This document shows positions 34,584 through 44,948 of a stretch of 64,000 bases of DNA, in pieces. Source of the stretch: Alphaproteobacteria bacterium (GTDB lineage: Bacteria > Pseudomonadota > Alphaproteobacteria > Sphingomonadales > Sphingomonadaceae); NCBI GenBank assembly GCA_046566245.1, contig JBKHXB010000001.1, forward strand, positions 4,221-68,220, given 5' to 3'. Both the position numbers and the translations under genes were made by a program. Position 1 is the first letter of the stretch; the number at the start of each line of letters is the position of its first letter. The notes beneath the pieces were generated by a model. It did not search any database. It was not told the origin of the DNA and saw nothing but the letters and a program-made list of their open reading frames with translations.

Positions 34584-34587
<4 letters not shown>
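34174..34587 (+). CDS. DUF2924-like protein
   Basis: LAWRIQADAFGGL, PGMRLAREWQG, SLSEVARAITGTRWNGLRFFGL. Confidence 0.88.
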
Positions 34588-36190
<1,603 letters not shown>

Positions 36191-36194
<4 letters not shown>

Positions 36195-36215
36195 CAAAAG
36201 CGTGAAAATGTCATG
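36191..36215 (+). repeat. 25-bp imperfect palindrome, copy 1
   Basis: GTGACAAAAGCGTGAAAATGTCATG; 21/25 identical to the reverse complement of 42676-42700. Confidence 0.7.
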
Positions 36216-36319
36216 AGTTTCCGAGGCGCTAATTCGCTCCAGTTTGTCTTCCTTTACCCGAGCGACTGGAAGGTCTGCACTGCCAGTTGCCGCGCGCGCA
36301 GGACTCCTGCCGAGCCGTC

Positions 36320-37021
36320 TCAGTCGTCACTCGGCAACAGCTCGTCCGGCGCATCGGCGACGGTCGAATTTTGAGTTGGCTCCCCCTCGCCGTCAAGCTC
36401 GGCTTCGGCCGACATGTCCGAAATGGCTATGCCATTTGCATCATCCACCACCTCGATCGGGCGGGGCGGCGTCTGTAGCTCGCTTATTTTTGCTAAGGCA
36501 GCAGTTTGGATTGCCTCTAAGTGCGTCGGGAAGCTTTCCGAAGCTGCACCAGACTTCTGCGCCGCAGCAGCAAAGCGTTGCTCGGCAGCAGCCTGGTTGA
36601 AATAGGCTCCTTCAGGGCCAATCAATCCCTCTTCCGTGGCCGCCAACCCAATCAGTGTGTCGAAAGCGGTGCACTGGTCTAGTTTGGACCAACTGAACTG
36701 TCGTTCGATCGAACCGAAGCAGTTCTGACTGTAGATCATCGCGCCTGGGAAACCTTCAGAATCCAGCGCGAGCCGAACATGGGCGGCCGCGCGACTGACT
36801 GAAGGTGGATTGGGTGCCGGTGGCAACACCGGAAGCGAAGGCACGACCTCACCGCTGCCAGCAACGGCTGGTTCGGACGTGGACGTTTGGATTGAATCCG
36901 TTTCAGAGTCGCAAGTAGATGCCAGAAGCACGAGGCCGATTACGCCACCGATCGCCCAAAACAGAGCGGTGCTTACATTGCTCCCGGCCGGCGCCCCGTG
37001 TGGACGGTTCATTGCTCTCAA
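36320..37021 (-). CDS. Hypothetical membrane-anchored protein
   Basis: N-terminal hydrophobic segment, two Cys (YSQNC...DQCTAFD), acidic disordered tail. Confidence 0.65.
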   Translation of the reverse strand: MRAMNRPHGAPAGSNVSTALFWAIGGVIGLVLLASTCDSETDSIQTSTSEPAVAGSGEVVPSLPVLPPAPNPPSVSRAAAHVRLALDSEGFPGAMIYSQNCFGSIERQFSWSKLDQCTAFDTLIGLAATEEGLIGPEGAYFNQAAAEQRFAAAAQKSGAASESFPTHLEAIQTAALAKISELQTPPRPIEVVDDANGIAISDMSAEAELDGEGEPTQNSTVADAPDELLPSDD

Positions 37022-37126
37022 CTCCCCCGTGAACCGAGCCTTCAGATGCTAAGCCCTTGCGCAACAAGAAAACAGCCTTGTTCGACAGCGGTGACCAACC
37101 TAATCTGCTTCTGGGGAGCAGGGGCG

Positions 37127-37384
37127 CTGAACGAGACGAACAACAGCGTTGTAGTAGACATCGGCGCGGATAGGCGCGGTCTGGCTCAGACCGCTGTTCG
37201 TTCTTTGCGTCTGTTCTATCCACAGCTCGAAGTGCGCTTGTGTCATGGCGAGGTTCACCTCCGCTCGCACTGCATGTCTAACGCCCACATTAGAGCGGCT
37301 TGGACCGCCGAGCTGCACGTAGCGCGGTTCGCGAAAGAGGATAAGCAGCAGCGAGAGCAGCTCTTTCGGGAGCTGTTCCAGTGA
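37127..37384 (+). CDS. HxsD-like small protein
   Basis: ~85 aa whose stop overlaps the hxsB start; C-terminal R..LFRELF. Start is probably non-canonical (CTG 37127 after GGAG). Confidence 0.5.
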   Translation: MNETNNSVVVDIGADRRGLAQTAVRSLRLFYPQLEVRLCHGEVHLRSHCMSNAHIRAAWTAELHVARFAKEDKQQREQLFRELFQ

Positions 37385-38793
37385 CTCTGTTTTCGCTGCG
37401 ACCACGCGCGATGCGCGATGGCAGCGTCCTTTGCACGAGCGATGCGGGGCGCTTCTTTGCAGCCCCAGCCGACTTCTTGGAACGCGTTGGCGTGGATGAG
37501 CTCACTGCCGAAGACAACGCCTTCCTGCAGCAGCAAGGCCTCATGTACGATGATGAGGCGGAGCTTGAGTACCACGCGCACCGATACGCGTTCGCGCAGC
37601 GGTTCGCGCAAGCTGCGGAGCTTGATTACCTCATCCTCGTTCCGACGCTCCGCTGCAATTTGAGCTGCAGCTATTGTCAGGTGTCGCGCGCCAACGTTGA
37701 TCGGAGCGGATTCGATTGGACCGACGACACGCTCGAGGCGGTCTACGGCATCCTCGATGGTCTCACAGCCCCGTCCGTCAAGATTGAGTTCCAAGGAGGC
37801 GAGCCGACGCTTCGCCCCGATCTCATCCAAAAGGTGATCGAACGGTGCAGCGCCGTGCGCGACGCTGAATATGTAGTCTGCACGAACCTTAGCCGAATTG
37901 ACGAAGAGGTCCTCAGCATCTTCGATCGGGAGGACGTCTATATTAGCACGTCGCTCGACGGTGATTTTGCAACCCACCAGCGCAATCGCACCCGCTCAGG
38001 TGAAGTCACGCGCGAGTTTCACGAAAACCTCGATTTCGTTGTCGAGCGTTACGGCTCGGCGAAAGTCTCGGCCCTGCCGACCATCGACCCCGCCAATCCG
38101 CCAAAACCGAAGGAGCTGATCAACAGCTTTATGAGCCGAGGCCTCAACAGCATCTATCTACGGCCGATTAACTACCAAGGATTCGCACGCAAACGGCACA
38201 AGGATGCTCGCGAGCAGGACGCAGATTGGCGGCGATATTATGAAGCTTTCATCCGCGAGCTCATAAGTCGAAATTGGACGGATCAAAGCCGTGTCGTCGA
38301 TGAAACCTATTTCACGCTTTGTCTGAATCGCATCTTCCGTGCAGGATTCGATCGACACGTTGACCTGCGGAACCCCAATCCAGTCGGCGTCGATTATGTC
38401 GTAATCGACTATGATGGGAAGGTGTATCCCACCGACGAGGCGAGGATGCTCACCCGCTCCCATGTCATCGATCTGGCGATTGGCGACGTGCGAAATGGCT
38501 GGGACACTCCCGAGCGGCAAATGCTCAATACCCATGCCACAAATCTGCTTGATCCAGCCTGCTCACGATGTGCGTATCAGCCCTATTGCGGGCGCGACGT
38601 CATCGACGACCTCTCTCGGTACGGTCGAATTGATTTGCCGCGAACCGAGACCGCTTTTTGCAAGCGACACATGCACCTGTTCGATTTCGCGTTTGAGCTT
38701 CTGTACTCGGATGATGAGCCCACTCAATACTCGCTAAGAAAATGGCTGCGCATTCCAGGCGGCAGGACGCAACTCGGAGTCCGCCACCCATGA
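37381..38793 (+). CDS. hxsB: His-Xaa-Ser system radical SAM maturase HxsB
   Basis: CNLSCSYC motif, KIEFQGGEP, ISTSLDG, YPTDEARML, SPASM-like CSRCAYQPYCG. Confidence 0.88.
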   Translation: MTLFSLRPRAMRDGSVLCTSDAGRFFAAPADFLERVGVDELTAEDNAFLQQQGLMYDDEAELEYHAHRYAFAQRFAQAAELDYLILVPTLRCNLSCSYCQVSRANVDRSGFDWTDDTLEAVYGILDGLTAPSVKIEFQGGEPTLRPDLIQKVIERCSAVRDAEYVVCTNLSRIDEEVLSIFDREDVYISTSLDGDFATHQRNRTRSGEVTREFHENLDFVVERYGSAKVSALPTIDPANPPKPKELINSFMSRGLNSIYLRPINYQGFARKRHKDAREQDADWRRYYEAFIRELISRNWTDQSRVVDETYFTLCLNRIFRAGFDRHVDLRNPNPVGVDYVVIDYDGKVYPTDEARMLTRSHVIDLAIGDVRNGWDTPERQMLNTHATNLLDPACSRCAYQPYCGRDVIDDLSRYGRIDLPRTETAFCKRHMHLFDFAFELLYSDDEPTQYSLRKWLRIPGGRTQLGVRHP

Positions 38794-39878
38794 TTCCGCT
38801 TCTTCTGCATGCACGAACCGAAGCCGAGCACCCGTTCGTAACACGCCTCACCGATCGTCAGCCCGATTCGTCGAACGGCGAAGCGCAAGGTGCCTGCTTG
38901 ATTGCTCAGGATGACGCCTGTGCGATTTTTGCGAGCGAATGGGGCCTCCTCGAGCTCAATGGCGCGGACGCACGGGATCTCTTCGGCGACGTCGTCTTAG
39001 TGGAACCTGAGGCTGGACGCGCGGAACGGCTCATCCGGGCGAGGTCCGATCATAACAGCCTGCTCGTGACGGAACGCTGTGACCAACTGTGTCAGATGTG
39101 CTCCCAGCCACCCAAGAAGACACATATCGATCGGTTTGAAGCCTTTGGGCAGGCTTGCCGCCTTGCTCCCAAAGGCGCTGTAATCGGTATCACCGGCGGG
39201 GAACCCACGCTGTACAAACATCAACTATTCGACCTTCTCGAAGGGACCCTTGAAGAGCGGCCGGATCTTGCCTTTCACGTGCTGACCAACGGCCAGCATT
39301 TTGAGGAGCGGGACGTCGAGCGCCTCCGCGGTTCTAAATATCGCGCAGTACAGTGGGGCATTCCGCTTTATGGGGCCGGGCCCGAGCTCCACGACGAAAT
39401 CGTAGGCAAGCAGGGCGCCTTCCAGCGGCTGAAGCATAGTTTCGGACAGCTGATGATGGCTGGTGCGAATGTCGAACTAAGAACCGTCGTGCTCAGTTCG
39501 AACTATTACCAGCTTCCGGACCTTGCTCGTTATGTCAGCACCAGGCTTGGCTTCATCGACGCGTGGTCTATCATGCAACTCGAAAACATCGGCTTTGCCC
39601 GCAATCGCTGGGGAACGCTGTACGTTAATCATCGCGCGGACTTCGAGCCTGTGGCATCGGCGATCAACATCTCACTTCTGAATGGAGTCAGTCCACGCCT
39701 TTTCAACTTTCCGCGCTGCACGATCCCACCAGAGTACCGCAACTTTGCTGCGGCTTCGATCTCAGATTGGAAGCGGCGCTACGCGAGGGCTTGCGATAGC
39801 TGCAGCCAGAAAGACCTATGCTCGGGATTTTTCGAGTGGCATCCGGAACGGGATATTGAGGGAGTAACCCCGTTATGA
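38790..39878 (+). CDS. hxsC: His-Xaa-Ser system radical SAM maturase HxsC
   Basis: NSLLVTERCDQLCQMCSQPP, GITGGEP, VLTNG, C-terminal CDSC...CSGFF. Confidence 0.88.
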   Translation: MIPLLLHARTEAEHPFVTRLTDRQPDSSNGEAQGACLIAQDDACAIFASEWGLLELNGADARDLFGDVVLVEPEAGRAERLIRARSDHNSLLVTERCDQLCQMCSQPPKKTHIDRFEAFGQACRLAPKGAVIGITGGEPTLYKHQLFDLLEGTLEERPDLAFHVLTNGQHFEERDVERLRGSKYRAVQWGIPLYGAGPELHDEIVGKQGAFQRLKHSFGQLMMAGANVELRTVVLSSNYYQLPDLARYVSTRLGFIDAWSIMQLENIGFARNRWGTLYVNHRADFEPVASAINISLLNGVSPRLFNFPRCTIPPEYRNFAAASISDWKRRYARACDSCSQKDLCSGFFEWHPERDIEGVTPL

Positions 39879-40492
39879 GGAAAGCACGTTTCTTCATTTC
39901 GAGCTTGGCAGCAGCTGGATTCGGAATGACCTTCCCAGTGCAGGAGGCGCTCGCCAAAGCCACCTCACCAAATGTTGGCGGCGATGATGATCCCAATGCT
40001 GGCAAGCTGTTCAAGCTGTTCAAGCAGGACCATCTATTCACTCTTGCCCAGCATCGTTCTCACAGCAGCCACCGGAGCCACAGCAGCCACCGAAGTCATA
40101 GTAGCCATCGATCGAGCTCAGGTGGCAGCTCTTATCCAGTCTACACGCCGCCTGTGTACACGCCGCCAGTTACGACACCACCTAGTACCGGCACGCCGTC
40201 CTATCCCTCTCCATCGACCAGCTCACCGTCGCTGCCTGCACCGGGCGTGGATCGCCCAAGTCCGGCGACGGAACCGCGGTCGCTGACCGGCAGAAGCGAG
40301 CTCTTCACTTCAATAGTTCGGCGCGTCCAGCTCGGGCTACTCGCCTATGGCTACTACGAAGGGACGATCGATGGCGTAGTCGGCCCCAAGATGAAGGATG
40401 CGCTTCGCCGCTTCCAGAAGGACTTTGGCCTTAATGTCACGGGCACGATTACGCCGCAGGTTCTCGATGCATTGAAGATCGTCGCCGGCTGA
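39875..40492 (+). CDS. hxsA: His-Xaa-Ser repeat protein HxsA with C-terminal peptidoglycan-binding domain
   Basis: Seven H-x-S units (HRSHSSHRSHSSHRSHSSHRS), P/S/T linker, VRRVQLGL...GYY.GTIDGVVGP...FQ...GL..TG. Confidence 0.88.
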   Translation: MRKARFFISSLAAAGFGMTFPVQEALAKATSPNVGGDDDPNAGKLFKLFKQDHLFTLAQHRSHSSHRSHSSHRSHSSHRSSSGGSSYPVYTPPVYTPPVTTPPSTGTPSYPSPSTSSPSLPAPGVDRPSPATEPRSLTGRSELFTSIVRRVQLGLLAYGYYEGTIDGVVGPKMKDALRRFQKDFGLNVTGTITPQVLDALKIVAG

Positions 40493-40580
40493 TCCCAGGC
40501 CGCTCACGTGCAGTGGCTCGGCGCCGATTATGTGGCGAGCACGCGGACGGCCCCACCGGTCAAATTACCGGCAGACGCTA

Positions 40581-40607
40581 CTCATGACAAAACTGTACTT
40601 TCGTTAT
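40581..40607 (+). repeat. Degenerate third copy of the palindrome
   Basis: CTCATGACAAAACTGTACTTTCGTTAT: intact CATGACA half-site, 12-nt spacer, 3/5 second half; lies between the convergent hxsA and OLD 3' ends. Confidence 0.4.
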
Positions 40608-40645
40608 CAGCAAGTCCTGCCGCGGCGCTCTAAGTAGATCACGTA

Positions 40646-42562
40646 CTATGCAGCCTTGGAAACCCTTCGTAGGATTTCCTCGAGTTCAAGCCGCGGATCT
40701 TCGTCCATAGCCGCCCAAAAGCTGTCGTCCGAGACGAACCTGATCAGCTTGTCTATGTCCTTGCCGGCAAAGCCGGGTGGCAAGTACGCCTCTAGAGATC
40801 CCCGCCGGAGCAGGAAAACCTGTTCAGCGGCCGCGGTCTGAATAAAACGATCTAGCTTCTTCTCTTGCTCGTCCGAGAGATCTTGCGAGAGTTGGCGCCG
40901 ACGACTTTTGATGTATTCCCAGGTTTGTTCCGCTCCGGCCCAGGATCCGGTAGAGATCGCCTTTTCAATCTCCGCTACCAAGGCAGCGGCATCCTTGCTC
41001 CTTATGTTCTCCAGAACATCTTCTTTGATCTCGCGATCATTGACCTTGAACAGCGACTGGAGCTCCGCGCTGCCGATCTGCTCAATGTAATCAAGGTCTG
41101 CCAGTATCGCATATGAAACCCGAGATGCCTGAAGCAGACTCTGATATGCACTGAACAAGCCTTTCCCACCGACACTGATGATCTCTAGGATCAACCCGGT
41201 GTCGGGCAAACCAAGCCGATTGAGAGCGGCTTCGAAGAAAATACGGTCTGACAGGCCCTCCACGAGAAGGACCTTGTCTGCGAAAAAGATGCGCTCATTG
41301 TTTTGACTGTTGACGATGTTGAAGAGGTGCTTCCCGTCCGGCAGTCCTCCCACTTCCAATCGGACGATTTGACTCTCTTGGTTCTCAGCGAAAACGCGAG
41401 AGACATATTGAATCGATTTTGGCGACACAAATGTCGGAGAATGGGTCGCCAACAGGAACTGGTTACCGGTTTTGTCAGTGAGTTCCTCGAACAGGTCGAG
41501 CAGTATGGCCTGCCATTTGGGGTGAAGATGCAGTTCGGGCTCATCGACAATGATGAGTGCATCACGAACGTTCAAAGCAAAAATCGTGAACAGATACGTA
41601 AGCAACTCTCGCTCGCCTGATGACGCGCGGCTGACAACGAAGCTCGTTCCCTGCTTTGAAAGCTGTACGTCATAGGCGTTCCGGAGCGGCGCCGTTGAGA
41701 CAAGGTCCCACTCATACCCCAGCCGAGTGAGGATCTTCGTAAGCTCTTGGAGGTTTTCATCAGCCCGAAACTCTTTGGCTGCTGTCCCCGTGTCTTTTTC
41801 TAACAAAAGCCGATACCGCTGTGCGAGACGGCCAATGGCGACCTGAACAAGGGAGAATTGTGTGCGGGATATAGTGGCGTCGCTTTGTCTCTTCGATTCA
41901 AAGGCGTTGTAGCCAGCGAGCTCGATGCTCGACGAGATCGCGTTAGCGGCGCGGTTGACGGGGAGATACACCATAGGCGTCGAAAGCGCGGCCAAGTCGT
42001 ATTCTTCCCTCAGCTGACTGTCGATTTCTGCCATCTGAAGAAACTGCAGGAATTGGGTTGATTCTGGTCCTGGAGTTCCGTGCTCGACCGAGCCATCGGC
42101 CAGCCGGTATGTGAAGCGCTGGCCCGAAACGATTTGATCGACATTCCATTCGGCAGCTTCCCGGTACCGAAGGTTTACATACTTTTTGCTCGCGAGCTCC
42201 AGGATGCGCTCGGAGTCATGCTTGATGGTCAACATGCTGTCCAAATCGCGGCGCGTGACCTCGACTTCTACCTCCAAAAGCTGAGGGAGGTCAGAAGCGG
42301 CACTATGTTTCTCTAAGATGAGCTGATTCAACGCATCATTGTACCGAAACTCGTGACGGTTTGGCTCCTCAGGAGTGGGGACGTTGACCGCATACATGGA
42401 GGCAAAGAGATGCCGCCTCAGCATGATCACGATCGCGTCAAGCAGGTTTGTTTTGCCGCCACCATTCGGGCCGATAAGGATACTGACGTTACCATCTAAA
42501 TTAAGCTCGGCCCGTTGGAGGAAGCTCCGAACGTTTTCGAGTGCAACTCGCCTCAGCAGCAT
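40646..42562 (-). CDS. OLD-family ATP-dependent nuclease (ABC ATPase + TOPRIM)
   Basis: Walker A GPNGGGKT, SSGE signature, DEPELHLHP, ATHSP, TOPRIM VEGLSD and ADLD. Confidence 0.88.
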   Translation of the reverse strand: MLLRRVALENVRSFLQRAELNLDGNVSILIGPNGGGKTNLLDAIVIMLRRHLFASMYAVNVPTPEEPNRHEFRYNDALNQLILEKHSAASDLPQLLEVEVEVTRRDLDSMLTIKHDSERILELASKKYVNLRYREAAEWNVDQIVSGQRFTYRLADGSVEHGTPGPESTQFLQFLQMAEIDSQLREEYDLAALSTPMVYLPVNRAANAISSSIELAGYNAFESKRQSDATISRTQFSLVQVAIGRLAQRYRLLLEKDTGTAAKEFRADENLQELTKILTRLGYEWDLVSTAPLRNAYDVQLSKQGTSFVVSRASSGERELLTYLFTIFALNVRDALIIVDEPELHLHPKWQAILLDLFEELTDKTGNQFLLATHSPTFVSPKSIQYVSRVFAENQESQIVRLEVGGLPDGKHLFNIVNSQNNERIFFADKVLLVEGLSDRIFFEAALNRLGLPDTGLILEIISVGGKGLFSAYQSLLQASRVSYAILADLDYIEQIGSAELQSLFKVNDREIKEDVLENIRSKDAAALVAEIEKAISTGSWAGAEQTWEYIKSRRRQLSQDLSDEQEKKLDRFIQTAAAEQVFLLRRGSLEAYLPPGFAGKDIDKLIRFVSDDSFWAAMDEDPRLELEEILRRVSKAA

Positions 42563-42675
42563 CGTCAGACCTCACGCACGTGGGACACGCGGTGCTGCTC
42601 GAATTTGATGATTTTGTATAGGTGACGCTTAGTATAGGCATCTGCCCGCGTATGCCTGAGACGAGCGCTCACATT

Positions 42676-42700
42676 CATGACATTTCCGTGTTTTTGTCAC
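42676..42700 (-). repeat. 25-bp imperfect palindrome, copy 2 (inverted relative to copy 1)
   Basis: CATGACATTTCCGTGTTTTTGTCAC on the + strand. Confidence 0.7.
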
Positions 42701-42751
42701 GAGTTGATAGCGGGTCGCCGAGCAACGCTCCAGCGACTGCGATGCGTCCAA

Positions 42752-43447
42752 TTATTTCGGCTTCCGACGAACTGCAGCCTGGAGAGTCTTGAAATTAAGC
42801 GAGTACGCATCGACGACCATCTTGCTGACCGGGATGTTCAACCGCCGTGCGGCTACGCAGACCCGCGCCTGATCCTGCTCGGAAACGCGAGAACCGAGAA
42901 AGATCTTCGTGACTGTTCTAAGCTTTTGGTATCTAGCCTGTCCATTCTCCTCGATAAAAATCCGCCATTCGCGCTCGCTCGCCCAGCGCACCGTCTTGCT
43001 CGATAGGCAGAGGCGCGCGCGATCGAGAGCGCTGCTCCCATCGTTTAGAAGTACCGGCTCTTTTTCCGAATACATCATCCGCGTGATTGCGACGCTGGAA
43101 TCGAGGCCAGTAATTAGCCGCTTCAAATTATATTCGACGCACATCCCCTCGAAGAAGTCGGCATAATGCGCCCACATCGGCTCGTGATCATACGTCTCTG
43201 AAAACGAAGCGATGCCCATAGCGTTGAAGGCGCGTCGGATCTGCACTTGCCGCTTCTCATGGTTCGGGTTTTTTTGAAACCTCAGTGACAGCCGATGCTT
43301 GCCTTCCATCGGATCATTGAGTTTCGAATAGGGCGAGCAGTGAATGTAGCCCTCGACCATCGCCTTGAGCTCGCGCTCGGCTTTCTCGCCGAGCGGCCGG
43401 TAACGGTAAAGACTGGGCGGCTTTGCGTAGATGTGGATGTCGGCCAT
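42752..43447 (-). CDS. DUF2971-like protein
   Basis: LYRYR, LNDPMEG, IASFSE...MWAHYAD...GMCVEY, K...WASEREWR. Confidence 0.8.
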   Translation of the reverse strand: MADIHIYAKPPSLYRYRPLGEKAERELKAMVEGYIHCSPYSKLNDPMEGKHRLSLRFQKNPNHEKRQVQIRRAFNAMGIASFSETYDHEPMWAHYADFFEGMCVEYNLKRLITGLDSSVAITRMMYSEKEPVLLNDGSSALDRARLCLSSKTVRWASEREWRIFIEENGQARYQKLRTVTKIFLGSRVSEQDQARVCVAARRLNIPVSKMVVDAYSLNFKTLQAAVRRKPK

Positions 43448-43677
43448 TTGTGCGTGTCATCCCTCAGCTTAACCTCGACAATAAGCGGTGGTCTCGCATT
43501 CGCAACGGTGCAGCAAACTGTCGTGAATAGCGTTCAGTCGATCCGGGTGTGACGTCCCGCCAATCAAGATGTGGCGGTCCGGCCTCCTTGGGCGATGAGC
43601 TTGCACTTGACAGTCAGCCAGCTGGTCAGCTCTGCGGCGCGCGTCTTGTCATCTGCCGCCGTCCACGCGATCGTACG

Positions 43678-44421
43678 TCATCGGCGCGGGTCTTCCTTCG
43701 CCGATCGGCTTTCGGACAGTGAGTCAAACTCGACGATGTATGGAAGCCGCCGCAGGAAGGCAGCGTCGATGTTCTGTTTGCGATTGGTAGTGAGGATGAC
43801 CGGCCCGTCATGGTCTTCCATCCGCTGCAGCAGATAGCTCACTTCAATGTTCGTGTAGTGGTCGTGGCCGTCCTTCACACCTGTACGCTTCCCGAACAGC
43901 GCATCAGCTTCATCAAACATCAGGACGGCTCCAGACGGCTCGGCTGCATCGAAGACACGCTGAAGATTTTCCTCGGTTTCACCGATGTACTTGCTGACGA
44001 CGGCGGGCGTATCGACACGGTACAGGTCGACCCCGCGGCCGGCTGCAAGGACCTGAGCCGCCATTGACTTGCCTGTGCCAGGCGGCCCGGCAAACAGCGC
44101 AGCGAGCGCTGTGTCATGCTGTCCTTCAGCGCCTCGCGCGTTTCGCTCTTCCACGTGTGATCTGCGCCTCGCGTCTTCAGCGAGCCTGCGAAGGCGCCCA
44201 ACCTGGTCGGGGGCCAGCTGAAGGTCATCCCACGTTGGAAGCGACTTCGCGTGATCCACACGAATGAGTCGCGAGTGAGCACCCCGCCGAGGCCCCCGTC
44301 CCTCTGGTCTGATCAGTGCCTTGCTGGCCAGATACGCCGCGATCCCCGCCACTGCCGCACCGAGCACCAACCGGAACTTGAAGTTCCTGTAGGGGTCGGT
44401 CCGGGTCTCGTTCGTCGCCAC
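43678..44421 (-). pseudogene. Truncated AAA+ ATPase (eCIS Afp15-like) with tail-tube-like N-terminal peptide
   Basis: GPPGTGKS, VVSKYIGETEENL, FDEADALFGKR, LLQRME, TTN...IDAAFLRR; ends right after the core and lacks the lid helices. GTG 44421 gives MATNETRTDPYRNFKFRL. Confidence 0.6.
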
Positions 44422-44559
44422 TGGCAACGTTCCTTCGATGTTGGGAAGAGGAGCTGCAATCATAGACTAACGTGTCGGCCGCTTGCACGGCCAATTCCGC
44501 CGGGACGTCCTCCACCAACAGGGGTGCGCCGTCGAGGCGTGAAGCGCGCACCAAGGGTT

Positions 44560-44874: not shown

Positions 44875-44948
44875 TGGAGGCCCGAGCCGGAATCGAACCG
44901 GCGTGCAAGGATTTGCAGTCCTCTGCGTAACCACTCCGCCATCGGGCC
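44875..44948 (-). tRNA. tRNA-Cys (GCA)
   Basis: GGCCCGATGGCGGAGTGGTTACGCAGAGGACTGCAAATCCTTGCACGCCGGTTCGATTCCGGCTCGGGCCTCCA: cloverleaf, GCA anticodon, encoded CCA. Confidence 0.97.

What the first reader, a model, noticed from the sequence alone, without database searches (positions are those of the whole stretch)
39875..40492. HxsA architecture: export-like leader, HxS core, Pro/Ser/Thr stalk, peptidoglycan-binding domain
MRKARFFISSLAAAGFG...EALA resembles a signal or RiPP leader, and the C-terminal PG-binding fold implies the modified His-rich core is tethered in the cell wall. That would allow metal binding or interference with phage DNA entry at the envelope. The core is encoded by imperfect 9-nt repeats (40052-40114) that could expand or contract.
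Basis: partly seen in the sequence, partly recalled or inferred. Interest (0 to 1): 0.62.

Follow-up and report, generated by a model that had tools for sequence, protein, structure and literature searches.

The report
Known HxsA phage-defence effector precursor

Summary
ORF 39875-40492 (205 aa) scores above the curated cut-off of NCBIfam TIGR03979 (HxsA) over its full length. It follows intact hxsB and hxsC and overlaps the hxsC stop codon (ATGA).

- a signal-peptide-like N-terminus (aa 1-27, ALA|K)
- seven tandem HxS triplets (aa 60-80) ending in SHRSS
- a disordered Pro/Ser/Thr/Tyr linker
- a confidently folded PG_binding_1 domain (aa ~141-205)

The interpretation matches published work on the E. 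coli homologue (Li et al., Nat Commun 2026, PMC13128918). There, HxsA is periplasmic, needs its signal peptide and PG-binding domain, carries a +8 Da modification on SHRSS, and blocks phage DNA entry. This is therefore not new.

The repeat tract is not a fast-changing locus. Copy number varies from 4 to 7 across the family but is invariant within seven clusters of ≥90% identity. The DNA copies differ only at synonymous sites.

Two modest additions:
- The small ORF in the HxsD position is too diverged for TIGR03976, as are all 19 alphaproteobacterial ORFs at this position that I scanned, this one included. It links to canonical HxsD only through a chain of profile matches.
- The N-terminal peptide is as conserved as the folded domain, which is unusual for a signal peptide.

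Low interest.

The parts
37127..37384 (+). Small ORF in the HxsD position. It is 85 aa from the TTG at 37127; the open frame allows a start as early as 36998. Its stop overlaps the hxsB start. I read it as a diverged HxsD-like accessory protein.
   Evidence: No TIGR03976 match at E<=10. It is homologous to the ORF at the same position in metagenome locus L003 (32% identity, E 8e-8). Profile chain: sphingomonad-type to other alphaproteobacterial type 92.5% probability, E 4.9e-7; alphaproteobacterial type to canonical HxsD 90%, E 1.6e-6; the direct comparison is not significant.
37381..38793 (+). hxsB, radical SAM/SPASM maturase
   Evidence: TIGR03978 at 406.8 bits (cut-off 370). CNLSCSYC at aa 92-99 and CSRCAYQPYC at aa 394-403 are intact.
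38742..39878 (+). hxsC, radical SAM maturase. The start is uncertain, because the family match begins at residue 82 of the longest ORF. The stop codon TGA overlaps the hxsA ATG (ATGA).
   Evidence: TIGR03977 at 309.1 bits (cut-off 267.9). CDQLCQMC at aa 113-120 and CDSCSQKDLC at aa 351-360 are present. The overlap is read from the sequence.
39858..39864 (+). Shine-Dalgarno-like GAGGGAG, 10 nt before the hxsA ATG
   Evidence: Read from the sequence.
39875..40492 (+). hxsA, His-Xaa-Ser repeat effector precursor (205 aa plus stop)
   Evidence: TIGR03979 at 140.3 bits (cut-off 121.65), full length. There are 1158 homologues at E<=1e-3, the best at 65% identity.
39875..39955 (+). Signal-peptide-like N-terminus, aa 1-27: MRKARFFISSLAAAGFGMTFPVQEALA, with a predicted cleavage after ALA
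   Evidence: Rule-based features. The E. coli homologue has a signal peptide at 1-22 that is needed for export (sequence). The n+h region is unusually conserved: mean top-residue frequency 0.70 against 0.69 for the PG-binding domain.
39956..40051 (+). Pre-core segment, aa 28-59, with the conserved motif DDPN..LF..F.QDH..TLAQ. It is the counterpart of E. coli residues 23-47, which are required for defence.
   Evidence: Alignments; paper.
40003..40025 (+). Perfect 9-nt tandem repeat CAAGCTGTT x2.6, encoding KLFKLFK inside the pre-core segment
   Evidence: Tandem Repeats Finder, 100% matches. The same KLFKLFK occurs in homologue P0002.
40052..40114 (+). HxS core: seven tandem His-Xaa-Ser triplets (HRS HSS HRS HSS HRS HSS HRS), encoded as 3.5 imperfect 18-nt units
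   Evidence: The three full units encode the same peptide and differ only at synonymous sites. The longest perfect direct repeat is 14 nt at an offset of 18 nt.
40103..40117 (+). SHRSS motif (aa 77-81) at the end of the array. This is the site of the +8 Da modification in E. coli HxsA.
   Evidence: Sequence. S77, H78 and R79 are nearly invariant, and S80 and G84 are invariant, in 36 homologues. Paper.
40115..40294 (+). Linker, aa 81-140. A Gly-Gly hinge is followed by a conserved Tyr/Pro-rich part (YPVYTPPVYTPP), then a variable Pro/Ser/Thr-rich part. It is modelled as disordered.
   Evidence: Composition and conservation. pLDDT is mostly below 65. The E. coli segment 114-139 is dispensable.
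40295..40489 (+). C-terminal PG_binding_1 domain (aa 141-205; Pfam match aa 148-200)
   Evidence: PF01471 at E 4.6e-17. pLDDT 93-98. Foldseek and phmmer hits to SltB3, SleB and other PG-binding domains.

Best explanation
The ORF encodes the precursor of HxsA, the effector of an HXS (His-Xaa-Ser) anti-phage system. The system lies in a low-GC cargo stretch between a serine-recombinase gene and tRNA-Cys.

Shown here:
- family membership;
- the four-part architecture;
- adjacent hxsB and hxsC with intact Cys motifs;
- translational coupling of hxsC and hxsA.

Inferred by homology to the E. coli system:
1. HxsA is made in the cytoplasm.
2. HxsB and HxsC, helped by the small upstream HxsD-like protein, install a covalent modification on the terminal SHRSS repeat and promote N-terminal processing.
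3. The moderately hydrophobic signal peptide sends the protein across the inner membrane after translation.
4. The C-terminal PG_binding_1 domain holds it on the peptidoglycan.
5. The flexible Pro/Ser/Thr/Tyr linker presents the basic His/Arg-rich array in the periplasm. The array has 7 His, 4 Arg and no acidic residue, and the mature protein has pI about 9.8. It interferes with incoming phage DNA at the entry step, without killing the cell.
For: - TIGR03979, TIGR03978 and TIGR03977 all score above their curated cut-offs. There is a single hxsA in the genome.
- PF01471 matches at E 4.6e-17. The C-terminal domain is confidently folded and matches the PG-binding domains of SltB3 and SleB.
- The domain order matches annotated E. 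coli HxsA, which has a signal peptide, HRSHSSHRSHSSHRSSS, a Gly-Gly/Tyr-rich stretch, a Ser-rich linker and a PG-binding domain. The C-terminal half is 34% identical.
- The SHRSS motif is present, and S77, H78, R79, S80 and G84 are invariant or nearly so among relatives.
- The rSAM CxxxCxxC and C-terminal CxxCx5C motifs are intact in both enzymes.
- The gene order small ORF-hxsB-hxsC-hxsA matches the order reported for 99.6% of systems.
- Experimental basis in E. coli (PMC13128918): periplasmic localisation, dependence on the signal peptide and the PG domain, +8 Da on SHRSS, DNA binding, and a block of DNA entry.
- The context fits a defence island. An OLD-family nuclease (PADLOC Old, 116.7 bits), a PDC-S31 (DUF2971) protein and an IetA-like AAA ATPase are neighbours. 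GC falls to 0.53-0.59 against 0.66-0.69 in the flanks. tRNA-Cys lies at 44875-44948, and a large serine recombinase at 34584-36194.
Against: - Nothing was measured in this organism. Export, PG binding, modification and defence are all inferred.
- The window protein and the tested E. coli protein align only over the core and the C-terminal half (34% identity). Their N-terminal regions are not alignable by BLASTP.
- The HxsD-position ORF fails TIGR03976 and lacks the LYW and LLNDYxLRE motifs. All four genes are required in E. coli, so maturation here depends on a very diverged accessory protein.
- The h-region is only moderately hydrophobic, and no signal-peptide predictor was available.
- Even in E. 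coli the final step, DNA engagement, is described only as 'likely'.
Confidence: 0.85

Rival explanations
1. HxsA is mainly a periplasmic metal-binding or metal-buffering protein. Its His-rich array would chelate Ni, Zn or Cu at the cell wall, and any effect on phages would be secondary.
For: Seven His residues at a regular spacing of three resemble His-rich metal-binding tracts (sequence). No experiment in the paper excludes metal binding.
Against: - The E. coli homologue gave at least 1000-fold protection against most of the 110 of 113 phages it restricted, and each repeat was essential for this.
- The locus lies among defence genes in low-GC cargo beside a serine-recombinase gene, not beside metal transport or regulation genes.
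- The array always comes with two radical-SAM enzymes, which simple chelation would not need.
Confidence: 0.05
2. HxsA is a classical RiPP precursor. The N-terminus is a leader, and a small modified HxS peptide is cut out and released, for example as a bacteriocin or signal. The PG-binding domain would be a discarded follower.
For: HxsB is related to peptide-modifying radical SAM/SPASM maturases (PapB family 86.6 bits, CcpM, anSME). The pre-core segment is conserved, as a recognition sequence would be.
Against: - In E. coli the mature species keeps residues 48-214, including the PG-binding domain, and that domain is needed for function.
- The PG-binding domain is among the best conserved parts of the family.
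- No peptidase or exporter gene accompanies the locus here.
Confidence: 0.03
3. The locus is present but not functional as a defence system in this genome, because the HxsD partner has diverged beyond function or is effectively absent. HxsA would then be made but not matured.
For: No TIGR03976 match exists anywhere in the genome (best E 0.31, at an unrelated site inside an 810-aa frame). HxsD is essential in E. coli.
Against: - A small ORF of the right size is kept at the same position and coupled to hxsB in sphingomonad, rhizobial and rhodobacteral loci. These ORFs are mutually homologous and link to canonical HxsD by profile comparison.
- All 19 alphaproteobacterial ORFs at this position miss TIGR03976. 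The miss is therefore a limit of the model, not a loss in this genome.
- hxsA, hxsB and hxsC are intact.
Confidence: 0.07

Closest known systems
HxsA of the E. coli HXS anti-phage system (Li et al., Nat Commun 2026;17:3910, PMC13128918). An annotated example is WP_001624497.1 in E. coli H6, NZ_CP010170.1.
   Same: - The order of parts is the same: signal peptide, pre-core segment, tandem HxS repeats ending in SHRSS, Gly-Gly plus a Tyr-rich stretch, a low-complexity linker, and a PG_binding_1 domain.
- The gene order is the same: small ORF, hxsB, hxsC, hxsA.
- The mature protein is similarly basic (pI 9.8 against 9.6).

   Different: - There are seven HxS repeats instead of five, that is, one extra HRSHSS unit.
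- Identity is only 34% over the core and C-terminal half, and the N-terminal 60 residues are not alignable by BLASTP.
- The linker is Pro/Thr/Tyr-rich here, not Ser/Asn-rich.
- The HxsD partner is not recognisable by TIGR03976.
- The host looks like a sphingomonad-type alphaproteobacterium, judged from the nearest named homologues.
NCBIfam TIGR03979 (His-Xaa-Ser repeat protein HxsA), with TIGR03978 (HxsB), TIGR03977 (HxsC) and TIGR03976 (HxsD)
   Same: HxsA, HxsB and HxsC score above the curated equivalog cut-offs over their full length.
   Different: The fourth family, TIGR03976, is not matched.
PG_binding_1 (PF01471) domains of cell-wall enzymes, such as P. aeruginosa SltB3 (5anz; 5ao8 with bound NAG-NAM-pentapeptide) and the B. 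cereus SleB N-terminal domain (6tci)
   Same: The three-helix fold is the same, with rmsd 1.1-1.2 A over 56-57 columns and 35-36% identity to SltB3.
   Different: Here the domain carries no enzyme. It anchors an unstructured, modified repeat array.
Anaerobic sulfatase-maturing enzymes and QhpD-type radical SAM/SPASM enzymes, which modify a protein in the cytoplasm before it is exported
   Same: HxsB is a weak relative of both (TIGR03942 60.5 bits; TIGR03906 52.8 bits). The logic is shared: a radical-SAM modification is made on a protein that ends up in the periplasm.
   Different: The substrate motif, the chemistry (+8 Da on SHRSS, structure unknown) and the biological role all differ.

Membership tests
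HxsA (TIGR03979) | Full-length match to the family model above the curated cut-off | tested here: met
   140.3 bits against 121.65, residues 5-203 on model positions 7-189 of 190. The six-frame genome search gives 139.6 bits.
HxsA (TIGR03979) | Tandem His-Xaa-Ser repeats (five in the tested E. coli protein) ending in an SHRSS-type motif | tested here: met
   Seven repeats at aa 60-80, with SHRSS at aa 77-81. The family range is 4-7 per run.
HxsA (TIGR03979) | N-terminal signal peptide that directs export to the periplasm | tested here: inconclusive
   The sequence has a positive n-region, a 15-residue h-region and an ALA|K site. No predictor was available, and export cannot be tested with these tools.
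HxsA (TIGR03979) | C-terminal peptidoglycan-binding domain | tested here: met
   PF01471 at E 4.6e-17. pLDDT 93-98 and Foldseek hits to SltB3 and SleB PG-binding domains. Actual PG binding is not testable here.
HXS anti-phage system (Li et al. 2026) | Adjacent twin radical-SAM genes hxsB and hxsC with intact cluster-binding cysteines | tested here: met
   TIGR03978 at 406.8 bits and TIGR03977 at 309.1 bits, both above cut-off. Both proteins have CxxxCxxC and CxxCx5C.
HXS anti-phage system (Li et al. 2026) | HxsD (TIGR03976, with LYW and LLNDYxLRE motifs) encoded upstream of hxsB | tested here: inconclusive
   There is no TIGR03976 match. A positionally conserved 85-aa ORF links to canonical HxsD only by a two-step profile chain (92.5% and 90% probability). 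The named motifs are absent.
HXS anti-phage system (Li et al. 2026) | Gene order D-B-C-A in one operon | tested here: met
   The coordinates are 37127-37384, 37381-38793, 38742-39878 and 39875-40492, all on the + strand and overlapping or abutting.
HXS anti-phage system (Li et al. 2026) | rSAM-dependent +8 Da modification and N-terminal processing of HxsA, periplasmic location, and a block of phage DNA entry | not testable with these tools
   Needs expression, fractionation, mass spectrometry and phage assays.
Classical RiPP precursor | A short precursor whose leader is removed and whose small modified core is released | tested here: not met
   This is a 205-aa protein with a conserved folded C-terminal domain. 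In E. coli the mature form keeps residues 48-214.
Tat-exported or lipoprotein precursor | Twin-arginine motif (S/T-R-R-x-F-L-K) or a lipobox Cys | tested here: not met
   MRKARFF has no adjacent RR, and the protein contains no Cys at all.
Contingency (phase-variable) repeat locus | Long perfect DNA repeats, and copy-number differences between very close relatives | tested here: not met
   The longest perfect direct repeat is 14 nt, and the units differ at synonymous sites. Repeat number is invariant within seven clusters of >=90% identity, 79 full-length members in all.

The most novel reading that the evidence does not exclude
The alphaproteobacterial HXS loci, including this one, may form an unrecognised subtype with two distinguishing features.

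1. Their HxsD partner has diverged beyond the TIGR03976 model.

2. The N-terminal 'signal peptide' of HxsA may not be a generic Sec signal. It carries a motif of the type [KR]-F-[IL]-x-x-L-x-x-x-A-G-(F), which recurs in alpha-, beta- and gammaproteobacterial loci whose HxsA otherwise aligns with this one mainly over the C-terminal third to half, at 33-52% identity in those segments. It may be a sequence-specific handle read by the HxsBCD machinery or by a dedicated export route. That would explain the 'non-canonical' HxsBCD-dependent processing reported in E. coli.
Probability: 0.25. Interest if true: 0.4.

Novelty: new member of a known kind. Interest (0 to 1): 0.13.

Why it matters
The finding adds little. 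The family was defined years ago, and its function and the role of each domain were published in 2026. The system is routinely annotated; for example, hxsA is named on most of the listed hits among 74 alphaproteobacterial plasmids.

It still has some practical value:
- It marks an HXS system in a sphingomonad-like genome, in low-GC defence cargo beside a serine-recombinase gene. The 2023 PADLOC models do not detect it.
- HxsD-based detection rules will under-call alphaproteobacterial HXS systems.
- It gives a natural seven-repeat variant for testing how repeat number affects defence.

Tried and rejected
- **HxsD by family model.** TIGR03976 gave nothing on the upstream ORF at E<=10. The whole genome gave only a chance-level hit at E 0.31. 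The L003 counterpart gave nothing.
- **HxsD by direct profile comparison.** Sphingomonad-type ORFs against canonical HxsD were not significant (0.4% probability). Only the two-step chain works.
- **PADLOC.** There is no HXS model. HxsA has no hit, and the two rSAM enzymes hit viperin models only weakly.
- **Tat signal.** Considered because the h-region is weakly hydrophobic and the substrate is modified in the cytoplasm. Rejected because there is no twin-arginine motif.
- **Lipoprotein.** Rejected because there is no Cys.
- **'This protein has the most repeats in the family.'** An early count of the 120 nearest representatives suggested this. It was rejected when genome loci showed other seven-repeat members and two-block arrays such as 4+3.
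- **Contingency locus.** Rejected.
- **Exact look-up of E. coli H6 HxsA.** The sequence is not in the cluster collection, so I made no within-E. coli repeat survey.
- **Phage collection.** There was only one weak hit, to the PG-binding domain.
Full report
**What is there.** The ORF listing gives an ATG-initiated ORF at 39875..40492 on the + strand, 205 aa, exactly as reported. The DNA shows that its ATG overlaps the TGA stop of the preceding gene (ATGA). A GAGGGAG Shine-Dalgarno-like element sits 10 nt upstream.

Against NCBIfam the protein matches TIGR03979, 'His-Xaa-Ser repeat protein HxsA', at 140.3 bits. The curated cut-off is 121.65, and the match runs over essentially the whole model. 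The two upstream genes match TIGR03978 (HxsB, 406.8 against 370) and TIGR03977 (HxsC, 309.1 against 267.9). A six-frame search of the window's own assembly (2.07 Mb, 195 contigs, 93% complete) finds this single hxsA.

1. *N-terminus.* MRKAR has a net charge of +3. It is followed by a 15-residue, moderately hydrophobic stretch, FFISSLAAAGFGMTF. Then come a proline and A-L-A|K, a classical -3/-1 signal-peptidase site. The protein has no cysteine and no adjacent twin arginines, so it is neither a lipoprotein nor a Tat substrate. No signal-peptide predictor was available, so this call is rule-based.
2. *Core.* HRSHSSHRSHSSHRSHSSHRS occupies residues 60-80, nt 40052-40114. Tandem Repeats Finder reports a 9-nt period at 40061-40092 and a better 18-nt period at 40061-40111 (84% matches).
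3. *Linker.* Residues 85-140 are 29% Pro, 20% Ser and 16% Thr and are modelled as disordered.
4. *C-terminus.* PF01471 PG_binding_1 matches residues 148-200 at E 4.6e-17. An AlphaFold2 model built on 36 homologues folds only this part, with pLDDT 93-98 as three helices. Foldseek's best PDB matches are the peptidoglycan-binding domains of P. aeruginosa SltB3 and of SleB. The SltB3 hits include the muropeptide complex 5ao8, with rmsd 1.1-1.2 Å and 35-36% identity. A sequence search of the PDB gives the same result.

**What it is.** A full-text search found Li et al., Nat Commun 2026 (PMC13128918). That paper characterises this four-gene system, HXS, in E. coli.
- The system restricts 110 of 113 coliphages, without abortive infection and without reducing adsorption, by blocking DNA entry.
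- HxsA has a signal peptide (1-22) and a PG-binding domain. Replacing the first or mutating the second abolishes defence, and only the wild-type protein reaches the periplasm.
- HxsB, HxsC and HxsD are all needed for an N-terminal cleavage that is not plain signal-peptide removal.
- A +8 Da modification maps to the SHRSS motif at the end of the array. Each of the five HxS repeats is essential.
- Residues 23-47 are required, and residues 114-139 of the linker are dispensable.
- Periplasmic HxsA binds DNA.

**Direct comparison with an E. coli protein.** I fetched an annotated E. coli hxsDBCA locus (strain H6). Its HxsA reads MKKFNFAALLPGFLALNNSVWA|SD…FYIAG-HRSHSSHRSHSSHRSSS-GGGYYGG…, followed by a Ser-rich linker and a PG-binding domain. 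The window protein has the same order of parts and the same SHRSS ending. It has one extra HRSHSS unit, so seven repeats instead of five. BLASTP aligns only the core and the C-terminal half, at 34% identity. Both mature proteins are basic, with pI 9.8 and 9.6. The window's array has 7 His, 4 Arg and no acidic residue.

Both radical-SAM enzymes in the window keep the CxxxCxxC motif and the C-terminal CxxCx5C motif. These are the cysteine clusters whose mutation blocks or reduces HxsA processing and abolishes defence in E. coli.

**Relatives and the repeat survey.** The protein database holds 1158 homologues at E<=1e-3. The best is 65% identical, and the nearest named ones come from sphingomonads. 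A scan of species-representative genomes returned 66 loci in Alpha-, Beta- and Gammaproteobacteria. Almost all have hxsB and hxsC upstream in the same order.
- Repeat number per uninterrupted run is 4 (29 proteins), 5 (78) or 6 (13) among the 120 nearest representatives.
- It is 4-7 among the genome loci, several of which have seven.
- Some proteins have two blocks split by a Gly-rich spacer, for example 4+3.
- So seven repeats is at the upper end of the range but not exceptional.

Within seven clusters of >=90% identity (79 full-length members), repeat number never varies. At the DNA level the window's three 18-nt units encode the same peptide but differ at 4-5 synonymous positions, including switches between the AGY and TCN serine codon families. 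The longest perfect direct repeat is 14 nt, against a family median of 8 nt.

The array is therefore conserved as a peptide. Its copy number changes only over long evolutionary distances, so it is not a slippage-prone contingency tract.

**Two things beyond the published description.**

*1. The HxsD-position ORF.*
- The small ORF before hxsB (85 aa from 37127, its stop overlapping the hxsB start) does not match TIGR03976, even at E<=10. The genome has no match elsewhere.
- It is homologous to the ORF at the same position in a metagenomic relative (32% identity, E 8e-8).
- Profile comparison links sphingomonad-type ORFs to rhizobial and rhodobacteral ones (92.5% probability, E 4.9e-7, full length). 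It links those in turn to canonical HxsD (90%, E 1.6e-6). The direct comparison fails.
- None of the 19 alphaproteobacterial ORFs at this position matches TIGR03976, whereas all five gammaproteobacterial controls do.
- The partner is therefore probably present but very diverged, and family-model rules will report alphaproteobacterial systems as lacking HxsD.

*2. The N-terminal peptide.*
- Its n+h region (residues 1-17) is as conserved across 121 homologues as the folded domain. The mean top-residue frequency is 0.70 against 0.69. The c-region and the next 13 residues score 0.45 and 0.40.
- A related pattern, [KR]-F-[IL]-x-x-L-x-x-x-A-G, recurs in beta- and gammaproteobacterial proteins.
- Signal peptides are usually among the least conserved parts of a secreted protein. 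This hints at a specific interaction and fits the paper's 'non-canonical' processing. It remains an inference.

The start of the 'stalk' is also not featureless. A Gly-Gly hinge and a Tyr/Pro-rich element (YPVYTPPVYTPP here, GGGYYGGSTPYYP in E. coli) are conserved family-wide.

**Context.** The hxs genes lie in a stretch whose GC falls to 0.53-0.59, against 0.66-0.69 in the flanks. The stretch runs between a large serine recombinase (34584-36194) and tRNA-Cys (44875-44948). It also holds an OLD-family ATPase-TOPRIM nuclease, a DUF2971/PDC-S31 protein and an IetA-like AAA ATPase. This fits mobile defence cargo. Homologues annotated as hxsA lie on 74 alphaproteobacterial plasmids, 58 of them conjugative.

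**Verdict.** This is an ordinary new member of a known family. Notes from earlier stages of this scan on other genomes reached the same identification. I did not rely on them.

Noticed in passing
window 37127-37384 (frame open from 36998): The ORF in the HxsD position is missed by TIGR03976, as are all 19 alphaproteobacterial ORFs at this position that were scanned. It links to canonical HxsD only through a two-step profile chain. Annotation and defence-finder rules that require HxsD will under-call alphaproteobacterial HXS systems.
   Followed up: yes
window 39875-39925 (HxsA aa 1-17) and loci L028, L041, L061, L065, L068, L070: The n+h region of the HxsA signal peptide is as conserved as the PG-binding domain. 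A motif of the type [KR]F[IL]..L...AG(F) recurs across proteobacterial classes, which is unusual for a signal peptide.
   Followed up: partly
window 40003-40025: A perfect 9-nt tandem repeat, CAAGCTGTT x2.6, encodes KLFKLFK in the pre-core segment. The same peptide occurs in one 62%-identical homologue (P0002).
   Followed up: partly
window 40646-42562 (-): A stand-alone OLD-family nuclease (AAA_15/AAA_21 plus OLD-like TOPRIM; PADLOC Old 116.7 bits) is convergent with hxsA. No GajB-like or reverse-transcriptase partner is adjacent.
   Followed up: no
window 42752-43447 (-) and 43678-44463 (-): A DUF2971 protein matches the PADLOC candidate system PDC-S31 (131.7 bits). Next to it is a 261-aa AAA ATPase with IetA/IteA-like similarity (72.5 bits), and no IetS-like partner was seen.
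   Followed up: no
window 34584-36194 (+), 36000-44000, 44875-44948 (-): A large serine recombinase and tRNA-Cys flank the roughly 8-kb stretch of lowered GC (0.53-0.59 against 0.66-0.69) that carries the defence genes. This looks like an integrative element.
   Followed up: partly
H17 (NZ_CP136707.1, Tritonibacter scottomollicae plasmid): A 'TIGR03982 family His-Xaa-Ser system protein' is annotated next to hxsA on this plasmid. This is an accessory HXS gene that the window does not have.
   Followed up: no
L006, L008; P0020, P0027, P0034, P0062 and others: Many sphingomonad HxsA proteins have two HxS blocks separated by a Gly-rich spacer (for example HRSHSSHSSHRS-GGGGGG-HYSHTSHRS). Each block ends in SHRS, so these proteins may carry two modification sites.
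   Followed up: no
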